Source: a virus (taxonomy: Duplodnaviria; Heunggongvirae; Uroviricota; Caudoviricetes). Taken from it: a stretch of 10,756 nucleotides of DNA. Position 1 is the first letter of the stretch, and each line of letters begins with the position of its first letter. Positions 9,362 through 10,756 of this stretch are shown piece by piece. A model generated the notes under the pieces. It saw nothing but the letters and a program-made list of their open reading frames with translations. It had not been told where the DNA came from and did not search any database. Position numbers and translations under genes: made by a program. The stretch lies in the IMG/VR virus record IMGVR_UViG_2541047931_000007. The stretch is one strand, 5' to 3'.

Positions 9362-9368
9362 AAAGAAT

Positions 9369-9407
9369 AAAAAAATCCCGCAGTGATCGCGGACAGGAAC
9401 TGCGGGA
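9369..9407 (-). terminator. Minus-strand intrinsic terminator: 8-bp stem tcccgcag/ctgcggga with a T7 run on the minus strand (A-run 9369-9375 on +)
   Basis: Stem 9376-9383 pairs with 9400-9407 around a 16-nt loop. The U-tract exists only for leftward transcription, so the element would stop transcripts entering the tail operon from the right. Confidence 0.45.
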
Positions 9408-9588
9408 GAGTTACGAAGATTAAGTGTAAGGAATTATTCTTATGTCACGACAAAAAAAATTAACGCAGAGAAATTATAAGTGCCACAGGGATTTTGTGAA
9501 AATGTGAAGATATTCAGAGTTTTTCTGTTTGTTCTTCTGGCGAGAGCGGATTCATTGACTGGTGGAGAAAAGGTAAGGGGGCAGCTCC

Positions 9589-10756
9589 CATAAGCGCTAA
9601 CTTAAGGGTTGTGGTATTACGCCTGATATGATTTAACGTGCCGATGAATTACTCTCACGATAACTGGTCAGCAATTCTGGCCCATATTGGTAAGCCCGAA
9701 GAACTGGATACTTCGGCACGTAATGCCGGGGCTCTAACCCGCCGCCGCGAAATTCGTGATGCTGCAACTCTGCTACGTCTGGGGCTGGCTTACGGCCCCG
9801 GGGGGATGTCATTACGTGAAGTCACTGCATGGGCTCAGCTCCATGACGTTGCAACATTATCTGACGTGGCTCTCCTGAAGCGGCTGCGGAATGCCGCCGA
9901 CTGGTTTGGCATACTTGCCGCACAAACACTTGCTGTACGCGCCGCAGTTACGGGTTGTACAAGCGGAAAGAGATTGCGTCTTGTCGATGGAACAGCAATC
10001 AGTGCGCCCGGGGGCGGCAGCGCTGAATGGCGACTACATATGGGATATGATCCTCATACCTGTCAGTTCACTGATTTTGAGCTAACCGACAGCAGAGACG
10101 CTGAACGGCTGGACCGATTTGCGCAAACGGCAGACGAGATACGCATTGCTGACCGGGGATTCGGTTCGCGTCCCGAATGTATCCGCTCACTTGCTTTTGG
10201 AGAAGCTGATTATATCGTCCGGGTTCACTGGCGAGGATTGCGCTGGTTAACTGCAGAAGGAATGCGCTTTGACATGATGGGTTTTCTGCGCGGGCTGGAT
10301 TGCGGTAAGAACGGTGAAACCACTGTAATGATAGGCAATTCAGGTAATAAAAAAGCCGGAGCTCCCTTTCCGGCACGTCTCATTGCCGTATCACTTCCTC
10401 CCGAAAAAGCATTAATCAGTAAAACCCGACTGCTCAGCGAGAATCGTCGAAAAGGACGAGTAGTTCAGGCGGAAACGCTGGAAGCAGCGGGCCATGTGCT
10501 ATTGCTAACATCATTACCGGAAGATGAATATTCAGCAGAGCAAGTGGCTGATTGTTACCGTCTGCGATGGCAAATTGAACTGGCTTTTAAGCGGCTCAAA
10601 AGTTTGCTGCACCTGGATGCTTTGCGTGCAAAGGAACCTGAACTCGCGAAAGCGTGGATATTTGCTAATCTACTCGCCGCATTTTTAATTGACGACATAA
10701 TCCAGCCATCGCTGGATTTCCCCCCCAGAAGTGCCGGATCCGAAAAGAAGAACTAA
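9589..10756 (+). mobile_element. IS186-like insertion sequence (IS4 family), left end plus complete transposase gene; right end lies beyond the window
   Basis: Left terminus begins cataagcgctaacttaagggttg at about 9589, matching my recollection of the IS186 terminal inverted repeat. The transposase ORF begins 55 nt inside. The IS is preceded by GGGGGCAGCTCCC, consistent with the GC-rich GGGG(N)CCC-type target preference reported for IS186. The exact boundary is uncertain by a few nt. Confidence 0.8.
9644..10756 (+). CDS. insL: IS186/IS4-family DDE transposase (InsL-like)
   Basis: Start chosen at ATG 9644 (MNYSHDNWSAILAHIGKPEELDTSARNAG...), giving 370 aa ending at the window's last codon (TAA 10754-10756). 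The track's 9638 start is an in-frame GTG two codons upstream. The sequence matches IS186 transposase from memory, including the C-terminal YRLRWQIELAFKRLK motif typical of IS4-family enzymes. Confidence 0.85.
   Translation: MNYSHDNWSAILAHIGKPEELDTSARNAGALTRRREIRDAATLLRLGLAYGPGGMSLREVTAWAQLHDVATLSDVALLKRLRNAADWFGILAAQTLAVRAAVTGCTSGKRLRLVDGTAISAPGGGSAEWRLHMGYDPHTCQFTDFELTDSRDAERLDRFAQTADEIRIADRGFGSRPECIRSLAFGEADYIVRVHWRGLRWLTAEGMRFDMMGFLRGLDCGKNGETTVMIGNSGNKKAGAPFPARLIAVSLPPEKALISKTRLLSENRRKGRVVQAETLEAAGHVLLLTSLPEDEYSAEQVADCYRLRWQIELAFKRLKSLLHLDALRAKEPELAKAWIFANLLAAFLIDDIIQPSLDFPPRSAGSEKKN

What the first reader, a model, noticed from the sequence alone, without database searches (positions are those of the whole stretch)
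9362..9643. Tail module ends after the I-like gene: no J-like central tail fibre, replaced by an AT-rich spacer and IS186
In lambda-type tails the order is M-L-K-I-J, with J (over 1000 aa) starting at or within the end of I. Here the I-like gene stops at 9361 and is followed by 227 bp of AT-rich non-coding DNA and then the IS186-like left end; no J-like ORF exists in the remaining 1.4 kb. Either the prophage is defective (tail tip gene deleted, possibly by IS-mediated rearrangement), or J lies beyond the IS. A tail assembly set retaining tape measure, M, L, K and I but no J would be a degraded cryptic prophage rather than a functional phage.
Basis: partly seen in the sequence, partly recalled or inferred. 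Interest (0 to 1): 0.6.

Follow-up and report, generated by a model that had tools for sequence, protein, structure and literature searches.

The report
IS186 recombination junction truncating a prophage tail
The tail genes of this E. coli prophage stop after gene I because an IS186 insertion sequence sitting there has recombined with another IS186 copy in the chromosomal gene yeaR, and the "AT-rich spacer" is the normal I-J gap, which carries the known small RNA gene pasB; this is an ordinary mobile-element rearrangement.

Summary
gpI stops at 9361, 227 bp at 40% GC follow, and a left end 100% identical to K-12 IS186 starts at about 9589. The window then ends at the transposase stop codon.

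The spacer does not replace J. It is the native I-J gap of this prophage family. Bases 9362-9524 are conserved in many intact E. coli prophages and phages, and they hold a minus-strand homologue of the Hfq-dependent sRNA PasB. In the closest relatives (99.9-99.99% identical) the order is I, pasB spacer, sodC (minus strand), J, lom, tail fibre.

IS186 sits in the sodC terminator hairpin, GGGG-GCAGCT-CCCC. This is a perfect IS186 target and the only one in 23 kb.

The window is 100% identical to part of scaffold KE702254.1 (GCA_000461115.1). There the right end of the IS abuts the 3' part of yeaR with yeaR's own target duplication, so the element is a hybrid of two IS186 copies. One close relative (L020) has IS186 at the same site still joined to sodC-J.

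The prophage is therefore broken here by IS186-IS186 recombination. I favour an inversion across the terminus but did not show it. A plain deletion would remove the essential gene tsaB from the left-replichore sites seen in relatives.

Verdict: ordinary, low interest.

The parts
3755..6997 (+). Tail tape measure gene (1080 aa).
   Evidence: ORF. Pfam TMP_3, Phage_HK97_TLTM and Tape_meas_lam_C on the identical protein.
6990..8783 (+). Tail tip assembly genes: M (6990-7331), L (7331-8029) and K (8040-8783).
   Evidence: PF05939 for M, PF05100 for L, and Prok-JAB plus NLPC_P60 for K.
8681..9361 (+). gpI-like tail assembly gene. The longest ORF gives 226 aa; the alternative GTG start at 8780 gives 193 aa. 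It is the last tail gene present.
   Evidence: PF06805 Lambda_tail_I. The exact protein is listed in thousands of blocks of the contig collection.
9362..9524 (.). Conserved part of the native I-J intergenic spacer. It is shared with prophages and phages whether or not they carry sodC.
   Evidence: Phage and prophage matches all run to window 9524. Alignments A1 and A2.
9369..9466 (-). PasB-like small RNA gene. The terminator hairpin is at 9377-9393 and the U-run at 9369-9376. The 5' end is either about 9453, by alignment to E2348/69 PasB, or about 9466, by the predicted promoter.
   Evidence: PasB of E2348/69 maps between gpI and gpJ at NC_011601 1466343..1466261(-). Identity is 59 of 77 aligned columns. 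Terminator-like site. The terminator hairpin is the stable element of the fold.
9473..9500 (-). Predicted sigma-70 promoter of the pasB-like gene: TTCACA, 16 nt, TATAAT (11 of 12 matches).
   Evidence: and the same site in the intact relative. These columns are invariant in the five-sequence alignment A2.
9525..9588 (.). The sodC-type variable part of the spacer. It ends in the left half of the sodC terminator hairpin (GGTAAGGGGGCAGCTCC, 9572-9588). The left copy of the IS186 target duplication, GGGCAGCTCC, is at 9579-9588.
   Evidence: Identical to FDAARGOS_1283, N32 and L016 up to 9589. The intact hairpin plus T-tract is called as a minus-strand terminator in L016. It is the only GGGG(N6/7)CCCC site in the 23-kb L016 locus.
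9589..10756 (+). IS186, first 1,168 of 1,339 bp. The left inverted repeat is at 9589-9611 and insL (transposase, 370 aa) at 9644-10756. By other conventions the left boundary lies anywhere from 9586 to 9590.
   Evidence: 100% identical to K-12 IS186A. PF01609 on the transposase. The right inverted repeat is seen in the source scaffold at L019:17151-17173.

Best explanation
The region is the distal end of the tail-assembly block of a lambdoid prophage with an HK97-like head and lambda-like M-L-K-I genes.

**Native layout.** In this prophage family I is not followed directly by J. A conserved intergenic spacer comes first and carries the minus-strand sRNA gene pasB. In this sub-lineage a minus-strand Cu/Zn superoxide dismutase moron (sodC) follows, and then J, lom and the side tail fibre.

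**Step 1, shown in a relative.** IS186 inserted into the sodC rho-independent terminator hairpin, whose loop and stem form a perfect IS186 target, GGGG-GCAGCT-CCCC.

**Step 2, shown as a structure; the mechanism is inferred.** This copy recombined with a second IS186 copy that sits in the chromosomal gene yeaR, a recurrent insertion site. The result is one hybrid IS186 whose left flank is the prophage and whose right flank is the 3' part of yeaR. As a consequence sodC, J, lom and the fibre genes are no longer contiguous with the rest of the tail operon, and the prophage can no longer excise as an intact unit or make tails from this locus. The pasB-like gene and its promoter, 89 bp from the IS, are untouched.

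**Step 3, inferred and not shown.** The most likely event is homologous recombination between inverted IS186 copies, one in a right-replichore prophage (an ompW-type site, about 1.31 Mb on the K-12 map) and one in yeaR (1.88 Mb). That would invert roughly 0.57 Mb across the terminus, about symmetrically around dif, and move sodC-J next to the 5' part of yeaR. I put this sub-claim at about 0.55. The confidence of 0.8 given below is for the hybrid-IS186 junction and the native pasB/sodC spacer only.
For: **Source and right flank**
- The window equals L019:6247-17002, 100% over 10,756 bp with no N inside.
- In L019 the right end of IS186 (CTTATG, ending at 17173) is followed by GGGTTTACCCACGCC, which lies in yeaR, and then by yoaG, yeaQ, yoaK, dgcP, yoaF, yeaO, nimT and further host genes.
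- The same IS186-yeaR 3' junction occurs in 197 of 5,426 complete E. coli genomes. The reciprocal yeaR 5'-IS186 junction occurs in 196.
- In strain 214-4 it is a simple insertion with the duplication GGGTTTACCC.
- The left flank in the window is GGGCAGCTCC, so the two flanks of this IS do not match.
- IS186::yeaR and the target motif GGGG(N6/N7)CCCC are published (PMC5009759).

**Native layout in relatives**
- Intact relatives at 99.4-99.99% identity have I, spacer, sodC(-), J.
- The target hairpin is called as the sodC terminator and is the only motif match in 23 kb.
- L020 (99.94% identical) shows the IS186 right end followed by GGGCAGCTCC, CCTTACC and sodC-J. That is the predicted other half of a simple insertion at this exact site and in this orientation.
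- A second, independent assembly (L015, GCA_000951935.1) has one contig running from the end of I through the spacer and IS186 into the 3' part of yeaR.

**pasB**
-.

**Geometry**
- The K-12 map gives ompW at 1,314,020 (+), yeaR at 1,879,589-1,879,948 (-), tsaB at 1,890,572 and pphA at 1,922,313.
- At ompW the prophage reads towards increasing coordinates, while the yeaR copy of IS186 reads towards decreasing coordinates. The two copies would therefore be inverted relative to each other.
Against: - The rest of the source assembly could not be reached, so neither the reciprocal junction (yeaR 5' part, IS186, sodC, J) nor the integration site of this prophage was seen.
- Among the six complete genomes with the sodC-type spacer, only one has the prophage at ompW. 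Three have it at yehV/btsS and two, probably clonal, at pphA. In those left-replichore sites the two IS copies would be direct repeats.
- No complete RefSeq genome carries either junction of IS186 at the sodC terminator. All evidence for the junction therefore comes from draft short-read assemblies, where a 1.3-kb repeat can be joined wrongly.
- The pasB homologue is only about 77% identical to the validated E2348/69 RNA, and its expression here is untested.
Confidence: 0.8

Rival explanations
1. Deletion. The two IS186 copies were direct repeats, and recombination (or IS-promoted adjacent deletion) removed sodC, J, lom, the fibre genes, attR and the host DNA up to the 5' part of yeaR. The result would be a truly J-less cryptic prophage remnant fused to yeaR.
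For: - The junction type (left flank of one copy, right flank of the other) is what a deletion between direct repeats leaves, as described in PMC5009759.
- Five of the six complete genomes with this sodC prophage have it on the same replichore as yeaR and upstream of it, at pphA or yehV, where the copies would be direct.
Against: - From the pphA site the deletion would span about 43 kb of host DNA including tsaB, which I know from memory to be essential in E. coli K-12. From yehV it would span about 330 kb (for the gene order).
- The junction is present in two different strains, L019 and L015; L015 carries an extra IS66-family insertion. It is therefore carried by viable lineages.
- No prophage site between yeaR and tsaB was seen in any relative.
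Confidence: 0.12
2. Assembly artefact. The strain really has two simple IS186 insertions, one in the sodC terminator and one in yeaR, and the assembler joined the left flank of one to the right flank of the other through the identical 1.3-kb repeat. J would then lie just beyond the IS, as in L020.
For: - Both assemblies with the junction are short-read drafts.
- No complete genome has the junction.
- L020 shows that the simple insertion exists, and there the IS could not be closed (an 860-N gap).
- The L015 scaffold is clearly tangled between two paralogous tail modules.
Against: - Two independent projects and pipelines give the same pairing of flanks, although an E. coli genome with IS186 typically holds about 3 copies (the median number of places matching the IS part of the junction queries).
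- The L019 sequence is gap-free from the portal gene to 6 kb past the IS.
Confidence: 0.08
3. Simple intergenic IS186 insertion with an intact sodC-J just downstream, which was the reader's alternative that 'J lies beyond the IS'.
For: This state exists in the close relative L020, where the right junction carries the matching duplication GGGCAGCTCC next to sodC-J.
Against: - In the window's own scaffold the right flank is yeaR, not sodC.
- The flanking 10-mers differ at 5 of 10 positions.
Confidence: 0.03
4. Duplication junction. The prophage lies between dif and yeaR, and unequal exchange between the direct IS186 copies produced a tandem duplication whose novel join is I, IS186, yeaR 3'. All the genes, including J, would be kept in the second copy.
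For: The junction type fits if the order along the chromosome is yeaR, then the intervening DNA, then the prophage. Short-read assemblies would collapse such a duplication.
Against: - No relative has the prophage in that interval.
- Large tandem duplications are unstable, yet the junction is shared by two strains.
Confidence: 0.03

Closest known systems
IS186 (IS4 family; PGAP name 'IS4-like element IS421 family'), as IS186A/B/C of E. coli K-12
   Same: - 100% identical over 1,339 bp to K-12 IS186A.
- Perfect 23-bp inverted repeats and the InsL DDE transposase.
- Inserted in a GGGG(N6)CCCC target.
   Different: This copy has non-matching flanks: the prophage sodC terminator on the left and yeaR on the right. 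It is a recombinant of two insertions rather than a fresh insertion.
IS186::yeaR insertion allele, for example in the MG1655 derivative PFM2 (PMC5009759) and in 197 complete E. coli genomes
   Same: The right junction CTTATG|GGGTTTACCCACGCC is identical, as are the downstream genes yoaG, yeaQ and dgcP.
   Different: The usual left partner, the 5' part of yeaR preceded by leuE, is replaced here by prophage tail genes.
PasB, an Hfq-dependent prophage sRNA of EPEC E2348/69 (Pearl Mizrahi et al. 2021, PMC8550237; Zhu, Shabalina and Storz 2026, bioRxiv 10.64898/2026.05.13.724894)
   Same: - Same position, immediately after the gpI stop codon and before gpJ.
- Same strand (antisense to the tail genes) and the same terminator hairpin and U-run.
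- The sequence of the published Northern probe is present on the + strand.
- Conserved promoter region.
   Different: - Only 59 of 77 aligned positions are identical to the E2348/69 RNA, and the body between terminator and 5' end differs.
- Expression and targets of this allele are unknown.
- Nothing in Rfam 15 matched the spacer at E <= 1.
Prophage-borne sodC morons in tail regions. From my own knowledge: sodCI of Gifsy-2, sodCIII of Fels-1, and the sodC-F genes of O157 prophages.
   Same: In the intact relatives a 175-aa Cu/Zn SOD (PF00080) is transcribed against the tail operon between I and J, with its own terminator.
   Different: sodC is not in the window. Only the left half of its terminator remains (9572-9588).
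Phage lambda tail tip gene order M-L-K-I-J
   Same: The order and the Pfam families of M, L, K and I match.
   Different: In lambda J follows I directly (my own knowledge). In this E. coli prophage family a 240-344 bp gap carrying pasB always intervenes, with sodC added in some members.

Membership tests
IS186 | 23-bp perfect terminal inverted repeats, CATAAGCGCTAACTTAAGGGTTG | tested here: met
   The left repeat is at window 9589-9611. The right repeat is at L019:17151-17173 and is its exact reverse complement. The element is 1,339 bp long.
IS186 | InsL DDE transposase (370 aa, PF01609) | tested here: met
   Bases 9644-10756. The 1,339-bp copy in L019 is 100% identical to K-12 IS186A (window part: 9585-10756). 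PF01609 on the product.
IS186 | Insertion into the target GGGG(N6/N7)CCCC | tested here: met
   The uninterrupted site in relatives is GGGGGCAGCTCCCC, the only match in the 23-kb L016 locus. The motif comes from PMC5009759.
IS186 | Identical target-site duplication on both sides, the mark of a simple transposition | tested here: not met
   The left flank is GGGCAGCTCC and the right flank is GGGTTTACCC. The matching right half is found next to sodC in relative L020, and the matching left half of the yeaR site in strain 214-4. The copy is therefore a true IS186 but a recombinant one.
Lambda-type tail tip module (M-L-K-I-J) | M, L, K and I homologues in order | tested here: met
   PF05939, PF05100, Prok-JAB plus NLPC_P60, and PF06805 on the identical proteins.
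Lambda-type tail tip module (M-L-K-I-J) | A J-like central fibre gene (over 1000 aa) downstream of I | tested here: not met
   No such gene exists in the window or in the 6 kb beyond the IS in the source scaffold. It is present (1230-1266 aa) in all intact relatives.
PasB sRNA | Encoded antisense in the gpI-gpJ intergenic region of a lambdoid prophage | tested here: met
   E2348/69 PasB at 1466343..1466261(-) lies between gpI (ending at 1466255) and gpJ (starting at 1466496). The homologous stretch of the window is 9369 to about 9453.
PasB sRNA | Sequence homology to the validated RNA, including the terminator | tested here: met
   59 of 77 aligned columns are identical, and the first 25 nt (U-run plus hairpin arm) are identical. 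The hairpin and U-tract are called as a terminator. The body of the RNA is divergent, so this is a variant allele.
PasB sRNA | Expressed, Hfq-bound transcript of about 83 nt | not testable with these tools
   Only a promoter-like site (11 of 12 matches) and a terminator are predicted. There are no expression data for this strain.
IS-mediated chromosomal inversion | A reciprocal second junction (yeaR 5' part, IS186, sodC, J) in the same genome | not testable with these tools
The SodC cluster representative is not the exact protein. The metagenome scan for the junction found nothing, and no complete genome has it.

The most novel reading that the evidence does not exclude
An IS186-IS186 exchange has inverted about 0.57 Mb across the replication terminus, roughly symmetrically around dif, and split one prophage into two halves at opposite ends of the inversion. 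Head, tail shaft, M-L-K-I and pasB would lie at one end, and sodC, J, lom and the fibre genes at the other. This would lock in place both host-useful morons, the PasB sRNA and the SodC enzyme, while abolishing excision and virion production. It would be a heritable way of domesticating a prophage, shared by at least two clinical strains.
Probability: 0.5. Interest if true: 0.3.

Novelty: already known. Interest (0 to 1): 0.15.

Why it matters
The biological importance is small. IS-mediated breakage of prophages is routine in E. coli, and every component here (IS186 and its target motif, the IS186::yeaR allele, PasB, prophage sodC) is already described.

The value is practical, in three ways:
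- A gap after gpI in these prophages is not a sign of decay. It is the pasB locus, with sodC added in some members.
- The sodC terminator is a perfect IS186 target, so this point is a predictable weak spot of the prophage.
- Non-matching target duplications around an IS are a quick way to spot recombinant junctions, and possibly a large inversion, in draft genomes.

Tried and rejected
- **Same insertion in complete E. coli genomes.** I searched for both junctions and found none.
- **Reciprocal junction in the source assembly.**
  - A SodC homologue search gave a cluster representative that is 99% identical, not the exact protein, and sits on a 796-bp contig, so it was useless as a handle.
  - The cluster listing confirmed that the exact SodC, J, Lom and fibre proteins exist in the collection but gave no genomic context.
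- **Metagenome contigs.** A scan for the pattern IS186 right end, 9-13 nt, sodC terminator found 0 hits.
- **gpI as a look-up handle.** The protein is too common to reach relatives' att sites. Its 226-aa form is in 1,341 blocks and its 193-aa form in 3,646.
- **Rfam.** Bases 9200-9700 at E <= 1 gave no family.
- **A small ORF in the spacer.** A 21-codon ORF at 9443-9508 is not kept in the PPompW or E2348/69 variants, so I rejected it as coding.
- **Literature search.** A search for 'IS186' plus 'yeaR' was polluted because 'yeaR' matched 'year', but it still led to PMC5009759.
- **Accession look-up.** NZ_CP164296.1 is not in the RefSeq copy.
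Full report
**1. The observation**

- A gpI-like ORF ends with TAA at 9359-9361.
- The next 227 bp (9362-9588) are 40.5% GC, against 58.9% for the M-I genes.
- From 9589 the sequence is the 23-bp terminal repeat of IS186, followed by insL (9644-10756). Bases 9585-10756 are 100% identical to IS186A of K-12 MG1655.
- The window stops exactly at the transposase stop codon, so the absence of a J ORF in the last 1.2 kb says nothing by itself.
- Upstream lie the tape measure gene and M, L, K and I, identified by the Pfam families recorded for the identical proteins.

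**2. The spacer is native, not a replacement for J**

- Megablast against deposited phages finds 113 records covering at least 80% of 6990-9640. All of the listed ones end near window 9524, well inside the spacer.
- In the phage PPompW_EH1846 the I gene ends 343 bp before J.
- In every prophage locus listed by exact-protein look-ups of gpI that reaches J and lacks sodC, the I-J gap is about 250-344 bp. Loci from the tape-measure look-up either repeat that gap or carry sodC within it.

**3. What the spacer holds**

- On the minus strand there is a near-consensus promoter, TTCACA-16-TATAAT, at 9500..9473.
- Downstream of it on that strand lies a hairpin followed by a run of T (U in the RNA) at 9393..9369. 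The same pair of signals is present in the intact relative L016.
- Table S6 of Pearl Mizrahi et al. 2021 (PMC8550237) places the Hfq-dependent sRNA PasB of EPEC E2348/69 at NC_011601 1466343..1466261, minus strand, 83 nt. Its Northern probe is AATCCCGCAGTGATCGCGGAGCT.
- In that genome this interval lies between gpI (ending at 1466255) and gpJ (starting at 1466496).
- The window aligns to it at 9369-9441, with 59 of 77 columns identical and an identical U-run and hairpin arm. The promoter region is invariant across five prophage variants.
- Zhu, Shabalina and Storz (bioRxiv 2026) describe PasB as embedded in an operon of phage structural genes and common in extraintestinal isolates.
- Rfam gave no hit for this stretch.
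- The conserved part of the spacer (9362-9524) is therefore a pasB-like sRNA locus. This allele is divergent and its expression is untested.

**4. What should follow the spacer**

- Six complete E. coli genomes match through to 9589. One of them, N32, is 99.9% identical to the window over the whole 9,589 bp before the IS, and the draft contig L016 is 99.99% identical over the same stretch.
- In all of these the order is I, spacer, sodC (minus strand, 175 aa, PF00080), J (1230-1266 aa), lom, tail fibre.
- The alignment shows that window and relatives are identical up to GGTAAGGGGGCAGCTCC. The relatives then continue with CCTTACC.
- GGTAAGGGG/CCCCTTACC followed by TTTTCT on the minus strand is called as a terminator 8 nt after the sodC stop codon.
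- Its centre, GGGG-GCAGCT-CCCC, is a perfect match to the IS186 target motif GGGG(N6/N7)CCCC of Lee et al. 2016 (PMC5009759). It is the only such motif in the 23-kb L016 locus.

**5. What lies beyond the IS in the source genome**

- An exact look-up of the tape measure protein returned L019, from scaffold KE702254.1 of GCA_000461115.1. The window is 100% identical to L019:6247-17002, with no gap from there to 6 kb past the IS.
- The IS is 1,339 bp long and 100% identical to K-12 IS186A.
- Its right end is followed by GGGTTTACCCACGCC, which is the 3' part of yeaR, and then by yoaG, yeaQ, yoaK, dgcP, yoaF, yeaO, nimT and further genes. This is colinear with K-12 read towards decreasing coordinates.
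- The IS186-yeaR 3' junction is present in 197 of 5,426 complete genomes, and the yeaR 5'-IS186 junction in 196.
- In strain 214-4 it is a simple insertion flanked by GGGTTTACCC on both sides. Lee et al. report the same insertion in an MG1655 derivative.
- In the window's genome the left flank is GGGCAGCTCC (the sodC terminator) and the right flank is GGGTTTACCC (yeaR). The element is therefore a hybrid of two independent insertions, not a simple insertion.

**6. The precursor exists**

- L020 (GCA_000350885.1) is 99.94% identical to the window. Its contig breaks in the spacer, an 860-N gap follows, and then the sequence reads ...CAACCCTTAAGTTAGCGCTTATG|GGGCAGCTCC|CCTTACCAGAC, followed by sodC and the start of J.
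- This is the predicted right junction of a simple IS186 insertion at the same site and in the same orientation, with the matching duplication.

**7. Independence of the evidence**

- L015, from a different project (GCA_000951935.1), has one contig starting 241 bp before the IS and running through IS186 into the 3' part of yeaR. It differs from L019 at one position in 4,536 bp.
- Its prophage carries an extra IS66-family insertion, so it is a different strain.
- No complete RefSeq genome has either junction of IS186 at the sodC terminator, so the event is confined to a rare lineage known only from drafts.

**8. Inversion or deletion**

- Recombination between direct IS copies deletes the DNA between them. 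Recombination between inverted copies inverts it (PMC5009759).
- The yeaR copy reads in the direction of yeaR, towards decreasing K-12 coordinates.
- Related prophages sit at three sites:
  - ompW, reading towards increasing coordinates. FDAARGOS_1283 has it there, as does an ST131 relative without sodC.
  - yehV/btsS, reading towards decreasing coordinates, in N32, TOE17 and cM8a.
  - pphA, reading towards decreasing coordinates, in AF14 and AF10.
- From pphA (1.922 Mb) or yehV the copies would be direct. The deletion would remove at least 43 kb including tsaB, which I recall to be essential. That is hard to reconcile with two viable strains.
- From ompW (1.314 Mb) the copies are inverted. 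The exchange would invert 1.314-1.880 Mb, whose midpoint of about 1.597 Mb lies close to dif (about 1.589 Mb, from memory). This is the kind of terminus-symmetric inversion that E. coli tolerates.
- I therefore favour inversion, at about 0.55. However, I could reach neither the prophage's left end nor the reciprocal junction, so this remains an inference.

**9. Consequences**

- In every scenario in which the junction is real, the late operon now runs from the head genes to I and then into IS186 and yeaR.
- J, lom and the fibre genes are not co-located, and attL and attR are no longer a proper pair. The prophage cannot excise or assemble tails from this locus.
- The pasB-like gene and its promoter lie 89 bp or more from the IS and are intact.

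**10. Verdict**

It is partly wrong: the spacer is the native pasB locus, sodC rather than J is the next gene, and deletion is not shown. All the parts are known entities, so interest is low.

Noticed in passing
window 1-299 (L016:6013-6545): The portal gene contains a 162-bp tandem repeat of 3.3 copies with 94% matches. The window starts inside it, directly after a 10-N assembly gap in the source scaffold (L019:6237-6246). The ORF at 37-765 is therefore only the 3' part of the portal gene.
   Followed up: partly
window 9369-9500, minus strand: A pasB-like sRNA gene with its promoter and terminator lies in the supposed non-coding spacer. It is a divergent allele, about 77% identical to the validated E2348/69 PasB.
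   Followed up: yes
L019:17174-17421; L025:2619-4327: IS186 in yeaR, at the same position and in the same orientation, is present in 197 of 5,426 complete E. coli genomes. These include K-12-derived laboratory strains, so the allele is recurrent or widespread. The left junction is found in 196 genomes, so one complete genome appears to have an unpaired junction.
   Followed up: partly
window 8681-8783: The start of gpI is ambiguous. The longest ORF (ATG at 8681, 226 aa) overlaps K by 103 nt. PGAP and other callers use GTG at 8780 (193 aa, 4-nt overlap). Both forms are on record in public annotations.
   Followed up: no
L015:5990-8575 and single-N joins at 13832 and 18707: The second strain with the same IS186 junction also has an IS66-family element in the major tail gene. 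Its scaffold interleaves a contig from a paralogous tail module (97.5% identical), which looks like an assembly tangle between two prophages.
   Followed up: partly
L039 and L042 (strains TOE17 and cM8a), 7199-11311: In these relatives the tail tip block carries further cargo. An ompC-like porin gene sits between M and L. A ClpP-like protease, an Arc repressor and an antirepressor-like gene sit between L and K. The tail tip module therefore tolerates morons at several junctions.
   Followed up: no
window 9443-9508: A 21-codon ORF with a Shine-Dalgarno-like AAGGA overlaps the pasB promoter region on the + strand. It is not preserved in the PPompW or E2348/69 variants and is probably not coding.
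   Followed up: partly
window 3028-3707: There is a pair of tail assembly chaperone ORFs (PF06222 Phage_TAC_1, then PF06223 Phage_tail_T) upstream of the tape measure gene. This is the usual G/GT arrangement. I did not examine whether a frameshift site is present.
   Followed up: no
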